Below, in pieces: positions 112-37,997 of a DNA stretch of 64,000 nucleotides. Source of the DNA: Candidatus Nomurabacteria bacterium. GTDB taxonomy: Bacteria; Patescibacteriota; Minisyncoccia; Phycocordibacterales; UBA918. Every line of letters begins with the position of its first letter. Position 1 is the first letter of the stretch. The stretch lies in the NCBI GenBank assembly GCA_020632095.1, contig JACKGF010000001.1:444937-508936 (forward strand), read 5' to 3'. The notes below the pieces were generated by a model. The model was not told the DNA's origin. It did no database searches and was given only the letters and a program-made list of their open reading frames with translations. The translations under genes and the position numbers were made by a program.

Positions 112-435
112 ATGAAAGAAATAATACTAACCACCACAGACTACGTACCTCATCGCGAAATAACCGAGATTATTGGTATTGCGCGCGGTAGTACTGTAAG
201 AGCCAGAAACGTCGGACGCGACATCACCGCCATGTTCAAAGGAATTGTCGGAGGAGAGATTTCTGAATACACCAAGCTTCAAGCCGAAGCTCGTGAACAA
301 GCTTTACAGAGAATGGTCGCCGACGCTTCAAGAAATGGGGCTGACGCCATAGTCGGTGTTCGCATCACCACCTCAATGATTATGAACGGTGCGGCCGAAG
401 TCGCCGCCTACGGCACCGCTGTTAAACTTCAATAA
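112..435 (+). CDS. YbjQ/UPF0145 (DUF74) family protein
   Basis: 107 aa; family-typical small protein with Gly-rich MFKGIVGGE and AIVGVR segments; ends TAA. Confidence 0.75.
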   Translation: MKEIILTTTDYVPHREITEIIGIARGSTVRARNVGRDITAMFKGIVGGEISEYTKLQAEAREQALQRMVADASRNGADAIVGVRITTSMIMNGAAEVAAYGTAVKLQ

Positions 436-3284: not shown

Positions 3285-3344
3285 CGCGCTATTAAAATAA
3301 TACGAGAGTGTCGCGTGCTAGTCAACCAACAAAAGTGAATTAAC

Positions 3345-3779
3345 TTAAGCTGCTACCTTTTCTGCTTCAACTTCTTCCTTCGGTGCTTCAACTGTTTCAG
3401 ATTCTGCTTCAACTGGAGTTTCTTCTACAGGAGCACTAGCTTCTTCTGCAGCGGCTTTAGCCTCTGCCTCTTCAGCAGCTTTCTTGATAGCAGCTTCATC
3501 AACAATCGGTGACTTCTTTGGTAGAACGTTAATCTTCTTGCCAGTAATCACTTTTTGATTGATTAGAATATTGTGTACTGTATCTGAAGGTTGTACTCCC
3601 TTAGCCAACCATTCCTTAGCTTTTTCGGCATCAATTTGTACCAAATTTGATTTTGGGTTGTATGAACCAAGACGGTCGACGTGTCGATCGCTTTTAACAC
3701 TGGTTCGTTTGTCAGTTACCACAATTCGGAACGACGGATCGTTCTTGCGGCCTACTCGTTGTAAACGCATCATTAACAT
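3345..3779 (-). CDS. rpsP: 30S ribosomal protein S16 with Ala/Glu-rich C-terminal extension
   Basis: MLMMRLQRVGRKNDPSFRIVVTD...LGSYNP S16 signature. Confidence 0.9.
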   Translation of the reverse strand: MLMMRLQRVGRKNDPSFRIVVTDKRTSVKSDRHVDRLGSYNPKSNLVQIDAEKAKEWLAKGVQPSDTVHNILINQKVITGKKINVLPKKSPIVDEAAIKKAAEEAEAKAAAEEASAPVEETPVEAESETVEAPKEEVEAEKVAA

Positions 3780-3867
3780 AGTGGCGACAGCATATCAGAG
3801 TATGTAAAAAGGTCAATAGCAAGCCTTGTCCAACACAAGAATACACTAACCTAACTGTAGACTTTTC

Positions 3868-3900
3868 ATTAGGGGTCTCATTAGGGGTCTGACCCCTAAT
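3868..3900. repeat. REP-like palindrome copy 1, with 12-nt partial duplicate
   Basis: attaggggtctgacccctaat at 3880-3900 preceded by a partial attaggggtct; followed by a conserved 20-mer aactctgtttttataatatc. Confidence 0.7.
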
Positions 3901-3980
3901 GGGATAATTTATAACTCTGTTTTTATAATATCTCTATTAAAGCACCAAGGAAAGGCCTAGGCGGAATAATCTTAAAGGGT

Positions 3981-4700
3981 GTGATATGCAGGAATTTTAC
4001 AAAAATTCCACCTGTGGTAACGTGCACACAGATCAGAACCTTACACAGGAGAACGCTAGTGAAAAAGACTGAACTCTTTACCAGTACTGGCCATGATGAG
4101 CTCAGTCTTGAGCTCAAAAGACTTCTTACTAAAGCTGGGCTGAAAAGTTTTAGTCAGCTCTCCGAATTTACCCGCCTTGGTCTACTCGAATTAATCCCTG
4201 AGCTCAAAGTTCGCCATTTGGTCAACTTGGAGCTAGCTTTAGAGATAAGAGATCTTTTTTTTCAACCAGACAACAGCATCCAGCTTGATTTGTTCATTAA
4301 TCAAAGGAAGCTTTTTGAACTATGGAAAAAGGGCGTCTACACCTACGAACAACTCGACAAGTTACCTTTTGCAGAGTTTGCCGTAGCAATGGGAGGGCCA
4401 CACTCGCGCTTTTTTAGAAGAAGAGTTGATGCCGAGAGTTGGGCCAAAGAACATGGAATAGCGAAAAAACTGTTCGAGATTCTCTACCTTACCTCCCGAA
4501 CCGCTTGGTTGCTTTATGCCGGCGGCATCACTAGTCTAGAAGAAACGGTGATAAAGAGCGATTTCGAGTTGGCACAGATACTACAGCCCAGTTTTGGTCT
4601 CAACGGGATTAAGCTACTGCCTTTGACCAGAAAAAGACTGCTTGAGATCAAATTCGCTCTTTTAAAAGCAGGTATCCACCGCCCCTGCATGCCGCTCTGA
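3981..4700 (+). CDS. hypothetical protein with helix-hairpin-helix-like motifs (passenger gene between REPs)
   Basis: 239 aa; RBS aaaggg 6 nt upstream; three L-x-x-AG-I/L-x-S HhH-like segments. Confidence 0.4.
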   Translation: MICRNFTKIPPVVTCTQIRTLHRRTLVKKTELFTSTGHDELSLELKRLLTKAGLKSFSQLSEFTRLGLLELIPELKVRHLVNLELALEIRDLFFQPDNSIQLDLFINQRKLFELWKKGVYTYEQLDKLPFAEFAVAMGGPHSRFFRRRVDAESWAKEHGIAKKLFEILYLTSRTAWLLYAGGITSLEETVIKSDFELAQILQPSFGLNGIKLLPLTRKRLLEIKFALLKAGIHRPCMPL

Positions 4701-4863
4701 CTTTTGTCAGAGCTTTTTTTTACAAAAATAATAGGTTCTGATCTATTAGATAATGAGCCAAAAAACACAAAGTATGGGTCAAGGCAGATTTTCAGAATAG
4801 TACAGTTAACTGCACTATTCTTGAAAGGGCTGTTTTGGTGTTTAATTAGGCTTCAAAGAATTC

Positions 4864-4884
4864 ATTAGGGGTCTGACCCCTAAT
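4864..4884. repeat. REP-like palindrome copy 2
   Basis: exact attaggggtctgacccctaat just 3' of the transposase stop; followed by the same 20-mer as copy 1. Confidence 0.7.
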
Positions 4885-4889
4885 AGAAA

Positions 4890-5513
4890 TCACAACTCTG
4901 TTTTTATAATATCCCTCTGTTTTGCAATTGAGCGGGCTAATTTTTGTGCTTCTTTGTAATCATAAGGATTTTCTACTTCAGGCAGTATTATTGAGTGAGA
5001 TTGTTTTTGATAGTGTGGAGAACTGGAATAAAAAACATCATCCCCTCTTTGTACTTTGTGTACATAATGATTTTCATTCACATACACAAAAAGATATTGG
5101 TAATATTCTTGTGTATCAATATGAATCCGCTTAAACCTACCCTGCAATAAAGTGCCAGATCGATCGTAACGATCATTAAAATATGATGTATAACCACCCT
5201 GAAGCCGTTTCATAAATTCACTAACACCTCCATCAGTAAGTTGTTCGACAATAAGATGAAAATGGTTCGACACCAGCGCATACGCGTGAATTTGTACCAG
5301 CTTATCTGAATCCAATCTTTCCTTACTTTTTGCATATTCAAAATTAAAAGTGGGGTTGGAGACATTAAAAACATCAAGAGAATCATAAAACCTTATGTAA
5401 TCATTTTTTGAAGAAAAGATTTTACGTTTATCAACTCCTCGATTATAAACGTGATATCTTTCACCATTCACTAAGGGAATTACTTTACGTGCCATAAGAA
5501 CATCATAACACAT
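4890..5513 (-). CDS. IS200-like Y1 (HuH) transposase, REP-associated tyrosine transposase-like
   Basis: YHVYNRG, IFSSKNDYIRFYDSL, HuH motif SNHFHLIVE, catalytic-Tyr block YTSYFNDRYDRSGTLLQGRFK; flanked by palindromes. Confidence 0.8.
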   Translation of the reverse strand: MCYDVLMARKVIPLVNGERYHVYNRGVDKRKIFSSKNDYIRFYDSLDVFNVSNPTFNFEYAKSKERLDSDKLVQIHAYALVSNHFHLIVEQLTDGGVSEFMKRLQGGYTSYFNDRYDRSGTLLQGRFKRIHIDTQEYYQYLFVYVNENHYVHKVQRGDDVFYSSSPHYQKQSHSIILPEVENPYDYKEAQKLARSIAKQRDIIKTEL

Positions 5514-5515
5514 CT

Positions 5516-5536
5516 ATTAGGGGTCTGACCCCTAAT
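5516..5536. repeat. REP-like palindrome copy 3
   Basis: exact attaggggtctgacccctaat 3 nt upstream of the transposase start codon. Confidence 0.7.
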
Positions 5537-5693
5537 AACACTACAAATTTTGACCCTTTACAAAGGGTTACCCTTGGTAAATTTGTCCTTGGGCGATAAA
5601 GGAGAGCTTTGGGGGGCAAGGACAAAAAGTGTTGTTATTGGGGGTAAAAAAGGTATACTGCGTGCTATGAATAATACCCATGAAGGAGTCATA

Positions 5694-20821: not shown

Positions 20822-21093
20822 GACAGAAAATTGTATTATTAAAACAATTCTTTTCTAGGAAAATTAATTGGGACAATTTCTTTTGTAAAAATACTCATTT
20901 TAAAATAACTTTAACACAGAGATTTAGCTCGAACATTTGACAATTTACGTCTGCGCGTTAGGATAGTAGATATAGAAATTGTGGTGCTTACCAAACACCA
21001 GAGCAATGCTCGAAGTCAATTTGATTTCCTAATCTGTAATAATGAGCGCTGGTTGGAATACTGACCGGAAACTCGGTGGAACCGCGATCAAGA

Positions 21094-21143
21094 TCGTCCG
21101 AGTAAAAATTCAATTTGTTGAATTTTTACTCGGACGATTTTTT
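21094..21143 (+). terminator. strong intrinsic terminator, possibly the 3' end of a small RNA
   Basis: tcgtccgagtaaaaattcaa-tttg-ttgaatttttactcggacga followed by tttttt; about 270 nt after the dnaE stop. Confidence 0.6.
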
Positions 21144-37818: not shown

Positions 37819-37837
37819 CCGGACTAGCCAATAAAAA

Positions 37838-37885
37838 TAATACCTAAGGAAAAGTTAACTTTTCCTTAGGTATTATTTTTATTGG
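37838..37885. terminator. long palindromic hairpin, 3' of tRNA-Thr
   Basis: taatacctaaggaaaagttaacttttccttaggtatta with A/T runs either side. Confidence 0.6.
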
Positions 37886-37924
37886 CTCTCTTCCTTCGTC
37901 ATCGAGTCACTTCTCTCGTATCGG

Positions 37925-37997
37925 AGCCACCTGTCAGATTCGAACTGACGACCTGCGGTTTACAAAACCGATGCTCTACCAACTGAGCTAAGGTGGC
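37925..37997 (-). tRNA. tRNA-Thr (anticodon UGU)
   Basis: hand-folded cloverleaf: acceptor GCCACCT/AGGTGGC, D-loop AGTTGGTA, anticodon loop TT-TGT-AA, T-arm GTCAG-TTCGAAT-CTGAC; CCA not encoded. Confidence 0.85.

What the first reader, a model, noticed from the sequence alone, without database searches (positions are those of the whole stretch)
3868..5536. IS200-like Y1 transposase bracketed by three identical REP-like palindromes with a passenger gene
ORF 4890..5513 carries the full HuH Y1 transposase signature in the RAYT arrangement: YHVxxRG, IFxxxxDY, HxH (SNHFHLIVE) and the catalytic Tyr block YTSYFNDRY...LLQGRFK. The exact 21-nt palindrome attaggggtctgacccctaat occurs 3 nt upstream of its start, immediately after its stop, and about 1 kb away in front of a HhH-motif gene. 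The first copy has a 12-nt partial duplication and is followed by the same 20-mer (aactctgtttttataatatc) that encodes the transposase C-terminus (DIIKTEL-stop) at copy 2. That looks like a footprint of a second, deleted transposase copy. REP/RAYT systems are described mainly in Proteobacteria, so one in a CPR-like reduced genome would be notable. It is also a possible driver of local rearrangement.
Basis: partly seen in the sequence, partly recalled or inferred. Interest (0 to 1): 0.7.

Follow-up and report, generated by a model that had tools for sequence, protein, structure and literature searches.

The report
RAYT-like transposase gene flanked by palindromes
A tiny-genome (Patescibacteria) bacterium carries one copy of a hairpin-cutting "tyrosine transposase" gene, bracketed by two identical 21-base palindromes with a third stray copy nearby; this is a low-copy relative of the REP/RAYT and TIRYT systems known from other bacteria, and the gene lying between the palindromes is an ordinary host gene.

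Summary
ATTAGGGGTCTGACCCCTAAT occurs exactly three times in 64 kb (0 expected), at 3880, 4864 and 5516. Two copies bracket an intact Y1 HUH gene (4890-5495, minus strand).

The protein lies closer to RAYTs than to IS200 TnpA. All 35 relatives tested hit the RAYT HMM, though below its cutoff. The best structural match is E. coli RAYT (4ER8). The Tyr motif is YVNEN, not Y---Q.

In 44 of 47 homologous loci the gene has the same locus-specific palindrome on both sides. The stems covary between loci.

Some copies sit at a fixed chromosomal site. One pair of 59%-identical orthologues shares the same neighbours.

The "passenger" gene is a resident host gene. Relatives keep rpsP | HhH gene | rnr with no transposase. 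The third palindrome, with 35 nt of the gene's 3' end, is a solo right-end copy.

High-copy REP dispersal is not shown: 3 copies in 64 kb here, and 3 exact copies in a related MAG. No GTAG foot and no tnpB are present.

Verdict: a REPtron/TIRtron-like unit from a large, undescribed Patescibacteria clade of class-2 Y1 enzymes. It is a new variant of a known kind, of moderate interest.

The parts
5516..5536 (.). Upstream (promoter-proximal) copy of the 21-nt palindrome. The stem extends to 11 bp with the flanking T/A (5515-5537).
   Evidence: Exact match. ssDNA hairpin of -8.1/-8.3 kcal/mol, z -5.3. Homologues have a locus-specific palindrome at the same position.
5502..5510 (-). Extended -10-like element TGTTATGAT, ending 6 nt before ATG 5495. 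This implies a leaderless or near-leaderless mRNA, and that the first ATG (5513) lies upstream of the promoter.
   Evidence: Read from the sequence. TGnTAnnnT occurs in the 40 nt before the start in 53/79 homologous loci, against 20/79 in an in-gene control. It most often ends 6 nt before the ATG. Function is inferred.
4890..5495 (-). Y1 HUH tyrosine nuclease/transposase gene, 201 aa from the conserved start (the ORF runs on to 5513). HUH is H84/H86 and the probable catalytic Tyr is Y144 (ORF numbering).
   Evidence: Pfam Y1_Tnp 28.1 bits. RAYT HMM hit below cutoff. AlphaFold pLDDT 91.7. Foldseek top hit 4ER8. hhalign to E. coli RayT. 15 synonymous vs 4 nonsynonymous differing codons against L095.
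4864..4884 (.). Downstream copy of the palindrome, 5 nt past the stop codon.
   Evidence: Exact match. Hairpin of -9 kcal/mol. Terminator-like on the minus strand. Present with the gene at the same site in L095.
3880..3900 (.). Solo third copy of the palindrome, in the rpsP / HhH-gene divergent intergenic region.
   Evidence: Exact match. Absent at this junction in L095, L092 and L094.
3866..3877 (.). 12-nt half-arm tandem duplication (TCATTAGGGGTC, repeated at 3878-3889).
   Evidence: D3. The same kind of arm duplication recurs next to palindromes in L039, L056, L073 and L026.
3901..3935 (-). Fragment copied from the element's right end: spacer, stop codon and the last 8 codons of the transposase gene.
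   Evidence: 30-nt repeat at 87% identity to 4887-4916. tblastn 100% to RDIIKTEL. Its spacer GGGATAATTTAT resembles the L095 version AGGATAAATCAC more than the window's own.
3820..3865 (.). Rest of the ~118-nt insertion relative to relatives. Origin unknown.
   Evidence: Host homology with L095 stops at 3819 and resumes near 3938. No blastn match elsewhere.
4059..4700 (+). Context only: resident 213-aa HhH / RpoA-CTD-like host gene, not a passenger. Its own terminator is at 4694-4713.
   Evidence: 11 homologues. Conserved synteny rpsP(-) | HhH(+) | rnr(+) without transposase or palindrome in L092 and L094. GC is host-like at 0.43-0.445. Terminator.

Best explanation
The locus is a REPtron/TIRtron-like unit. 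It is a single-copy class-2 (RAYT/TIRYT-like) Y1 HUH tyrosine nuclease gene flanked on both sides by its own cognate hairpin-forming palindrome, inserted between a resident HhH gene and rnr.

By homology with E. coli TnpA-REP and IS608 TnpA, the protein most likely binds the palindrome as a single-stranded DNA hairpin. It would then cut nearby through HUH-bound metal and Tyr144 (inferred).

The upstream palindrome abuts an extended -10, leaderless promoter, so it probably insulates or autoregulates the gene. The downstream palindrome sits at the stop codon, where a terminator would be (both inferred).

The enzyme or its hairpins occasionally seed extra copies in neighbouring intergenic DNA. 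Here that left one solo right end (palindrome plus 35 nt of the gene's 3' end, with a half-arm duplication) upstream of the HhH gene.

The gene between the palindromes is an ordinary host gene. The unit is low-copy here, not a genome-wide REP population.
For: Palindromes and their link to the gene (shown):
- Three exact palindromes, 0 expected.
- 44 of 47 loci with a palindrome on both sides have the same locus-specific arm upstream and downstream. There are 56 different upstream palindromes and 3-4 Watson-Crick pair types per stem position.
- A 53%-identical homologue in another Kaiserbacteria MAG, in a different context, is bracketed by the identical 21-mer.

Protein class (shown):
- The fold is Y1 HUH. 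The best PDB hit is RAYT 4ER8 (E 9e-6, TMt 0.71).
- 35/35 relatives hit NCBIfam REP_Tyr_transpos; 1/35 hits transpos_IS200.
- HUH and YVNENH align to the E. coli RayT HUH and YIYINP.

Copy number and inheritance (shown):
- The exact protein is found in only one genomic context across 6 contigs.
- P0035 is found in one context across 24 contigs. That context matches L010, with 59% transposase identity against 49-70% for the neighbouring genes.
- 15 synonymous vs 4 nonsynonymous differing codons against L095.
- Gene GC tracks host GC (r = 0.83) while staying about 10 points lower in 52/52 loci.

Host gene and solo copies (shown):
- Synteny without the transposase in relatives.
- Solo palindromes occur in intergenic spacers in relatives: L008, L039 (7 in about 5 kb) and L056.

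Promoter: extended -10 pattern.
Against: - No biochemical evidence exists for this clade. The cleavage site and strand are unknown.
- All HMM scores to the RAYT equivalog are far below cutoff (24 vs 80 bits).
- The Tyr motif lacks the class-2 proline.
- No GT[AG]G foot is present.
- Dyad symmetry and covariation are equally compatible with a dimer binding double-stranded DNA.
- The rest of the ~1-Mb genome was not visible, so neither 'single copy' nor 'low-copy palindrome' is proven genome-wide.
- The unit is absent from the same site in more distant relatives, sits at different sites in different lineages, and is much more similar between the window and L095 than the adjacent host DNA is. So it has moved or been exchanged, which an IS would also do.
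Confidence: 0.68

Rival explanations
1. It is an autonomous IS200-type insertion sequence (tnpA only, about 673 bp between the outer palindrome ends). It transposes as a unit by the single-strand peel-and-paste route, using two identical subterminal hairpins. The solo right end is the remnant of a second copy that was mostly deleted.
For: - The size is close to IS200.
- A hairpin sits at each end.
- The unit is missing between the HhH gene and rnr in relatives.
- It lies at different chromosomal sites in different lineages.
- Its GC is 0.34 against 0.43-0.45 for the flanks.
- A right-end fragment carrying coding sequence sits 1 kb away.
- The unit is 93-100% identical between two strains whose adjacent host gene is only 57-69% identical in its 5' half.
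Against: - The exact protein and P0035 each occur in a single context, and there is no second copy in 64 kb.
- The Tyr motif is Y---N, not Y---Q.
- The IS200 HMM is hit by 1/35 members at E 0.07, against 35/35 for the RAYT HMM.
- The protein is 201 aa with a C-terminal tail, not about 150 aa.
- The ends are identical perfect palindromes, with loop orientation the same in 24 loci and opposite in 18. That gives no left/right or strand asymmetry.
- Orthologues co-diverge with their neighbours.
- Low GC is family-wide and tracks host GC, so it is not a sign of recent arrival.
- Solo palindromes occur without a gene.
Confidence: 0.22
2. The palindromes are ordinary regulatory hairpins of the host (bidirectional intrinsic terminators or an operator). 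They have no enzymatic relationship to the Y1 protein, and their identity reflects local duplication.
For: - They are GC-core stems at gene ends.
- Two score as terminator-like on the minus strand.
- In relatives the solo copies sit just after stop codons.
- Single exact copies in unrelated MAGs sit in terminator-like positions (L011).
Against: - The same palindrome is kept on both sides of the gene in 44/47 loci while differing between loci.
- In 51/73 loci it also occurs in frame inside the gene, at two conserved positions.
- The identical 21-mer flanks a homologue only 53% identical in another genome.
- The host HhH gene has its own separate terminator.
- T-runs after the stems are weak.
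Confidence: 0.05
3. The protein is a domesticated, sequence-specific double-stranded DNA-binding regulator that has lost nuclease function. It uses the dyad-symmetric sites purely as operators of its own gene.
For: - The upstream palindrome overlaps the promoter.
- Perfect dyad symmetry with indifferent loop orientation fits a symmetric dimer on duplex DNA.
- The gene is single-copy at a fixed location.
Against: - HUH histidines, the Tyr of YVNxN and the RSGxLxQGxFK block are invariant or nearly so across 40 sequences down to 40% identity. That argues for retained catalysis.
- Solo and intragenic copies imply that DNA was copied, not merely bound.
Confidence: 0.05

Closest known systems
TIRYT / TIRtron (Di Nocera 2013, PMC3733652), equivalent to TnpA-Y1 subclass 2.1 (Quentin et al. 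2018, PMC6006769) and RAYT Group 1 (Bertels 2017, PMC5581495)
   Same: - Motifs NH[FY]H, a [FL]Q in place of WQ, RSGxLxxGRFK and a Ser-rich tail motif.
- The nearest non-CPR hits (Iodobacter and Skermanella plasmids, 27-30% identity) are of this type: YIELNPVRAG, WSSY.
- The gene is flanked by inverted repeats at short, fixed distances.
- The window's palindrome core GGGGTCAG fits the published TIR consensus GGGGWSAS. It is identical to the core of the 26-nt TIRs flanking the Iodobacter gene.
- The repeats are low-copy.
   Different: - Each flank is itself a perfect palindrome rather than one arm of a long TIR.
- No C-terminal HTH / DnaA_C-like domain is detected.
- There is an insertion of about 25 aa after the FN motif.
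- The Tyr motif is YVNEN-H rather than Y[IV]xLNP.
- The GGGGWSAS core is not conserved across the CPR family.
- Subclass HMMs were not available to test placement.
REP / RAYT (TnpA-REP) systems, e.g. E. coli RayT with REP/BIME (PDB 4ER8; subclasses 2.2 and 2.5)
   Same: - Best structural match and the only NCBIfam family matched.
- Gene flanked by cognate hairpin-forming palindromes that co-evolve with it.
- Apparently single copy at a fixed location.
- Solo palindromes lie in intergenic DNA just after genes in some relatives.
   Different: - Scores are far below the equivalog cutoff.
- No 5' GT[AG]G foot, W replaced by F/L, and no proline after the Tyr motif.
- Palindromes are perfect and symmetric.
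- Copy number is tiny: 3 in 64 kb here, and 3 exact copies in a related MAG. Nunvar et al. 2010 (PMC2817692) state that REPs usually occur at more than 100 copies per genome.
TnpA-Y1 subclass 2.4 (RAYT Group 4): REPs inserted in frame inside tnpA-REP, 'double-foot' REPs
   Same: - Family relatives carry the cognate palindrome in frame inside the gene in 51/73 loci.
- The palindromes are symmetric at both feet.
- Protein length is about 200 aa and the HUH motif is NH[IFV]H.
   Different: - The insertion positions differ. Here they lie before the HUH motif and after the Tyr motif; in subclass 2.4 they lie between HUH and Tyr.
- The window's own gene has no internal copy.
- The WQ and YIxNNP motifs are not matched.
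IS200 (IS200/IS605 family, TnpA-Y1 class 1)
   Same: The Y1 HUH fold, a tnpA-only unit of about 0.7 kb, and a hairpin near each end.
   Different: See the membership test. The Y---Q motif, the IS200 HMM, multicopy status, asymmetric ends and the ~150-aa size are all not met.

Membership tests
Y1 HUH transposase superfamily (Pfam PF01797) | Pfam Y1_Tnp score above the gathering cutoff | tested here: met
   28.1 bits against a cutoff of 23.
Y1 HUH transposase superfamily (Pfam PF01797) | HUH motif plus a single catalytic Tyr on a C-terminal helix, in the HUH fold | tested here: met
   N83-H84-F-H86 and Y144 are invariant. The model has pLDDT 91.7. Foldseek hits 4ER8, IS608 and ISDra2 TnpA at E 1e-5 to 1e-3. 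hhalign aligns both motifs to E. coli RayT.
IS200/IS605 TnpA (class 1) | Tyr motif Y-x-x-x-Q | tested here: not met
   The motif is YVNENH; relatives have YVNLN and YVNGN. Class definitions are from PMC6006769, Table 1.
IS200/IS605 TnpA (class 1) | Match to NCBIfam NF033573 transpos_IS200 | tested here: not met
   No hit for the window protein. 1 of 35 relatives hits at E 0.07.
IS200/IS605 TnpA (class 1) | Several near-identical copies per genome at different sites | tested here: inconclusive
   One copy in 64 kb. The exact protein occurs in one context in 6 contigs. The rest of the ~1-Mb genome was not available.
IS200/IS605 TnpA (class 1) | Distinct left and right ends with imperfect subterminal hairpins on one strand; often a tnpB partner | tested here: not met
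   The two ends are the identical perfect palindrome. Loop orientation is the same in 24 loci and opposite in 18. No tnpB-sized ORF is adjacent; the neighbours are the HhH gene and rnr.
RAYT / TnpA-REP (class 2) | Match to NCBIfam NF047646 REP_Tyr_transpos at the curated cutoff | tested here: not met
   24.4 bits against a cutoff of 80. All 35 relatives hit it, with best E 4e-10, but none reaches the cutoff.
RAYT / TnpA-REP (class 2) | Tyr motif Y-x-x-x-N-P | tested here: inconclusive
   Y-V-N-E-N is present, but H, D, F or N replaces P.
RAYT / TnpA-REP (class 2) | Gene flanked by cognate palindromes (REPtron arrangement) | tested here: met
   Window. 44 of 47 homologous loci have matching upstream and downstream arms.
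RAYT / TnpA-REP (class 2) | Cognate palindrome dispersed at high copy through the genome | tested here: not met
   Three copies, all local, in 64 kb. Three exact copies in the whole GL51 Kaiserbacteria MAG. 15 solo copies in 408 kb of homologous loci. A full-genome count allowing mismatches was not possible.
RAYT / TnpA-REP (class 2) | 5' GT[AG]G tetranucleotide at the hairpin foot | tested here: not met
   The flanks are TC, TC and CT before ATTAGGGG. The family consensus foot is (C)ACTTRG...CYAAGT(G) inside the stem.
TIRYT / subclass 2.1 | Flanking inverted repeats, some with the GGGGWSAS motif | tested here: met
   The window palindrome contains GGGGTCAG. The Iodobacter subclass-2.1-type gene is flanked by TIRs containing GGGGTCAG. 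The motif is not general across the CPR family.
TIRYT / subclass 2.1 | C-terminal HTH / Bac_DnaA_C-like domain | tested here: not met
   No second Pfam domain. The tail is about 55 aa and ends in one long helix.
TIRYT / subclass 2.1 | Placement by the authors' subclass HMMs or phylogeny | not testable with these tools
   The subclass profiles of PMC6006769 are not in the available libraries.

The most novel reading that the evidence does not exclude
Patescibacteria may harbour a large, undescribed subclass of class-2 Y1 HUH enzymes (about 1,000 clusters at 50% identity). These would be chromosomally resident and would co-evolve with a perfectly symmetric cognate palindrome placed at three points: their own promoter, their own stop codon and, in most members, in frame at two fixed positions inside their own coding sequence. 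That would be a self-targeting, self-regulating REPtron that seeds only a few REP-like copies in reduced genomes. It could also be the palindromised evolutionary link between TIRYT inverted repeats (GGGGWSAS) and true REPs.
Probability: 0.35. Interest if true: 0.6.

Novelty: new variant of a known kind. Interest (0 to 1): 0.45.

Why it matters
RAYT/REP and TIRYT systems have been characterised almost entirely in Proteobacteria, Cyanobacteria and Bacteroidetes. The classification papers read here do not mention CPR/Patescibacteria, and literature searches found no description.

Three things follow if the family is what it appears to be:
- A roughly 1-Mb symbiont-type genome keeps an intact, purifying-selected Y1 nuclease with co-evolving hairpins. 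This extends the "domesticated transposase" question to genomes under strong streamlining.
- The palindromes vary between loci while their position stays fixed. That gives a natural covariation data set for working out how Y1 enzymes read hairpins.
- The in-frame internal copies and the promoter overlap suggest testable self-regulation.

For annotation, the practical point is that the HhH gene is not cargo, and that "transposase" here does not imply an active IS.

Tried and rejected
- Passenger-gene idea: rejected. Homologues of the 213-aa protein sit between rpsP and rnr with no transposase or palindrome.
- Chance: rejected.
- Other palindrome families, or degenerate copies of this one, in the window: none found.
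- A second transposase copy or pseudogene in the window: only the 8-codon fragment.
- Low GC as a sign of recent horizontal transfer: rejected. The gene is about 10 GC points below its flanks in 52/52 loci and tracks host GC.
- Sequence search of the PDB with the family profile: only a marginal ISDra2 hit, E 0.3. The structural search was needed instead.
- Origin of the 48 nt at 3820-3867: no match anywhere.
- DnaJ/DnaK-type alternative site in the window: absent.
- Plasmid database: only distant hits (<32% identity), so no evidence that this clade travels on known plasmids.
- A first homologue search used a wrong reading frame.
- Exact 21-mer singletons in Curtissbacteria (inside a CDS), an Actinomycetes MAG and a Eubacterium MAG: left unresolved. 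About 0.27 are expected by chance.
Full report
**1. What is in the sequence**

The 21-nt palindrome ATTAGGGGTCTGACCCCTAAT occurs at 3880-3900, 4864-4884 and 5516-5536. All three copies are exact. None is expected by chance, and no further copy exists in the 64-kb window even at 3 mismatches. A scan for all perfect palindromes found no other repeated family.

As single-stranded DNA, each copy folds into a 9-11 bp hairpin of -8 to -10.7 kcal/mol, with z about -4.5 to -5.3.

It passes the Pfam Y1_Tnp cutoff, at 28.1 against 23 bits.

Alignment with 34 homologues puts the conserved start at M7, which is ATG 5495. Between the upstream palindrome and that ATG lies TGTTATGAT (5502-5510), ending 6 nt before the ATG. 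The first ATG (5513) overlaps this element.

The 12-nt partial duplication is a tandem repeat of TCATTAGGGGTC at 3866-3889. The 20-mer shared by copies 1 and 2 lies at 3913-3932 and 4894-4913. It belongs to a 30-nt repeat of 87% identity. tblastn matches 3935..3912 at 100% to the last eight residues of the protein.

**2. What the protein is**

- Against NCBIfam, the only meaningful hit is REP_Tyr_transpos, at 24.4 bits. This is far below the 80-bit equivalog cutoff.
- All 35 members of the alignment hit that model (best E 4e-10). Only one hits transpos_IS200, at E 0.07.
- An AlphaFold model built on 40 sequences is confident (pLDDT 91.7, pTM 0.88).
- Its best PDB match is 4ER8, the E. coli REP-associated tyrosine transposase bound to a REP hairpin (E 9e-6, TM 0.59/0.71). 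IS608 and ISDra2 TnpA follow.
- hhalign against E. coli RayT, fetched from MG1655, aligns NHFH with EHMH and YVNENHYVH with YIYINPVKH.

The LLQGRFK block corresponds to the RayT IWQPRFW region.

In the scheme of Quentin et al. 2018 (PMC6006769), class 1 (IS200) has Y---Q and class 2 (RAYT-like) has Y---NP. This family has Y-V-N-x-N without the proline, together with NH[FY]H, [FL]Q instead of WQ, and a Ser-rich tail motif.

The nearest non-CPR relatives found are plasmid genes of Iodobacter and Skermanella at 27-30% identity. They show LWEGRFKS, YIELNPVRAG and WSSY, the signature of subclass 2.1.

The clade is large. A profile search of 1.84 billion cluster representatives gave 1,068 hits at E<=1e-30 and 12,768 at E<=1e-10. 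Source names, where present, are Nomurabacteria, Kaiserbacteria, Pacebacteria, Moraniibacteria and "Patescibacteria group". The 100% match sits on a 997-kb contig.

**3. The palindromes belong to the gene**

A scan of one genome per GTDB species for the 21-mer found a Kaiserbacteria MAG (GL51). There, a 207-aa homologue only 53-54% identical is bracketed by the same 21-mer in a different genomic context. One further solo copy lies on another contig of that MAG.

Eighty homologous loci were then taken from metagenomes and analysed by script.

- In most loci a perfect palindrome sits roughly 1-30 nt upstream of the start, and within about 15 nt of (or overlapping) the stop codon.
- In 47 loci with a palindrome on both sides, 44 have the same arm on both sides.
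- There are 56 distinct upstream palindromes.
- The outer stem is conserved, (C)ACTTRG...CYAAGT(G). The window's ATTAGG is a variant of this.
- The inner three to four pairs vary, with 3-4 Watson-Crick pair types per position.
- The loop or centre is in the same orientation on both sides in 24 loci and in the opposite orientation in 18.

The perfect pairing itself follows from how the palindromes were selected. The informative results are the variety of pairs and the upstream/downstream identity.

**4. How the gene behaves**

The exact protein occurs on six contigs, always between rnr and the 213-aa gene.

P0035 (54% identical) occurs on 24 contigs, always between a 160-aa membrane protein and Impact_N-DnaJ-DnaK. 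This is the same context as the GL51 homologue.

Those two orthologues are 59% identical, while their neighbours are 49%, 66% and 70% identical. Their palindromes differ (ATTAGGGGTC against GTAAGGGGTC) in both copies. That is co-divergence at a fixed site, with concerted change of the repeats.

Against the partial copy in L095, the window gene shows 15 synonymous and 4 nonsynonymous differing codons out of 105.

The gene's GC is below that of its flanks in 52 of 52 loci (mean 0.338 against 0.435), and the two are correlated at r = 0.83. The low GC seen in the window is therefore a family trait, not a sign of recent arrival.

These properties match what Bertels et al. 2017 describe for RAYTs rather than for ISs (PMC5581495).

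**5. The "passenger" gene**

The 213-aa HhH protein (4059-4700) has 11 homologues. In two relatives with long contigs the order is rpsP(-) | HhH(+) | rnr(+), with no transposase and no palindrome.

The gene has host-like GC and its own terminator at 4694-4713. It is a resident gene. The transposase unit lies in the HhH-rnr spacer.

**6. The third palindrome**

Relative to L092, L094 and L095, the window has an insertion of about 118 nt (3820-3937), just upstream of the rpsP promoter. It consists of:
- 46 nt of unknown origin;
- the half-arm duplication;
- the palindrome;
- 35 nt copied from the right end of the transposase unit.

L095 shares the downstream palindrome and the transposase at the same site but lacks this insertion. 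It has a different 132-aa ORF at the same junction.

The spacer in the solo copy (GGGATAATTTAT) resembles the L095 right end (AGGATAAATCAC) more than the window's own, which is 3 nt shorter. So the solo copy derives from an older or different version of the right end.

Its flank has diverged by 13%, yet its palindrome is still exact. Whether it is a relic of a deleted full copy or a mobilised end cannot be decided from these data.

**7. Are these REPs?**

Not by abundance.
- The window has only the three local copies.
- The GL51 MAG has three exact copies in its whole assembly.
- In 408 kb of homologous loci there are 15 copies more than 220 nt from the gene.

Those solo copies are intergenic and sit just after stop codons. 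Some genomes show local clusters: seven in about 5 kb in L039 and six in L056. L008 has two different family palindromes side by side.

There is no GT[AG]G foot.

The arrangement fits the REPtron/TIRtron concept. Di Nocera et al. 2013 describe RAYT-like genes flanked by inverted repeats, some self-complementary, some sharing GGGGWSAS, and present at low to moderate copy number (PMC3733652). The window palindrome contains GGGGTCAG. The Iodobacter subclass-2.1-type gene is flanked by 26-nt inverted repeats containing the same GGGGTCAG.

**8. Likely mechanism**

Shown:
- conserved catalytic residues;
- the Y1 fold;
- cognate palindromes at fixed positions;
- occasional extra copies.

Inferred from the solved RAYT and IS608 complexes: the enzyme binds the palindrome as an ssDNA hairpin and cuts beside it.

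Inferred from position:
- TGnTAnnnT lies in the 40 nt before the start in 53 of 79 loci, against 20 of 79 in an in-gene control. It usually ends 6 nt before the ATG, and the TG is often the last two bases of the palindrome. The upstream palindrome would thus occupy the -35/spacer region of a leaderless promoter and could insulate or autoregulate it.
- The downstream copy sits where a terminator would be.

**9. Rivals**

An autonomous IS200-type element remains possible at about 0.2.
- The unit is absent from more distant relatives and lies at different sites in different lineages.
- Window-versus-L095 identity is mosaic: 57-69% in the 5' half of the HhH gene, but 93-100% from 4666 to 5127. The unit has therefore been exchanged recently, probably by homologous recombination.

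Every class-1-specific feature that could be tested failed (see the membership table), and no multicopy evidence was found.

"Mere terminators" and "pure duplex-binding regulator" are unlikely, for the reasons listed under the rivals.

**10. Novelty and limits**

The two classification papers read here do not mention CPR/Patescibacteria. Literature searches found only an automatic K07491 annotation in one preprint. JGI already labels some members "RayT" automatically.

I rate the finding a new variant of a known kind, of moderate interest.

Limits:
- the complete genome could not be read;
- subclass HMMs were unavailable;
- no biochemistry exists for this clade.

Noticed in passing
L017, L022, L027, L030, L048, L051, L059, L062, L065, L069, L081 and others (gene-relative +169..209 and +431..472 nt): In 51 of 73 homologous loci the locus-specific palindrome also occurs inside the transposase gene. 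It sits in frame at one or both of two conserved positions: before the HUH motif and just after the YVNxNxxVH motif. It encodes short peptides such as QLGGETSKLV, and the ORFs mostly stay open. The window's own gene has none. This resembles the in-gene REPs of subclass 2.4, but at different positions.
   Followed up: partly
window 3866-3889; L039:1380-1420 and 3308-3348; L056:4954-4990; L073:2915-2950; L026:819-855: Tandem duplication of one palindrome arm, immediately beside a full palindrome, recurs in unrelated family loci. This suggests a mechanistic by-product, such as slippage at the hairpin or cleavage and rejoining. It is unexplained.
   Followed up: partly
52 homologous loci with at least 2.5 kb of flanks: The transposase gene is about 10 GC points below its flanks in every locus (0.338 vs 0.435). 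It nonetheless tracks host GC (r = 0.83, slope 0.54). This is a persistent compositional offset of unknown cause.
   Followed up: partly
L095:30-540 vs window 3820-3937: At the same junction upstream of the HhH gene, a related strain carries a different insertion. It is a 132-aa ORF with a Tat-like RRKFL signal, in place of the solo palindrome. Window-versus-L095 identity is mosaic (57-69%, then 100%, then 72-75%, then 93-100%). This indicates recombination tracts through the HhH gene and the transposase unit.
   Followed up: partly
L008:3114-3183: In the GL51 Kaiserbacteria MAG, a solo ATTAGGGGTCTGACCCCTAAT lies 22 nt from a second palindrome, AATCTTAGGGGTTTAACCCCTAAGATT. Apart from the centre base, that second palindrome is the cognate palindrome of another family member (L013). 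Both lie between a small gene and hisS.
   Followed up: no
L007:2690-2710; L009:43-63; L011:7186-7206: Single exact copies of the 21-mer occur in a Curtissbacteria MAG (inside an HD-domain CDS, encoding LGVRPL), an Actinomycetes MAG (at a stop codon, at the contig end) and a rumen Eubacterium MAG (between nrdR and a convergent gene). That is three singletons against about 0.27 expected by chance. Whether they are real dispersed copies is unknown.
   Followed up: partly
L107:472-497 and 1317-1342: An Iodobacter plasmid transposase of subclass-2.1 type is flanked by 26-nt inverted repeats containing GGGGTCAG. This is the same core as the window palindrome and fits the published GGGGWSAS motif.
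   Followed up: partly
window 37826-37887: A 62-nt perfect palindrome (AGCCAATAAAAATAATACCTAAGGAAAAGTTAAC...) lies 36 nt from tRNA-Thr(TGT) at 37923-37997 (-).
   Followed up: no
window 21093-21138 and 556-581: A 46-nt hairpin with a 21-bp stem, and a 26-nt GC-rich perfect palindrome AAAGGCGGTCCCGCGGGACCGCCTTT. Both are single occurrences.
   Followed up: no
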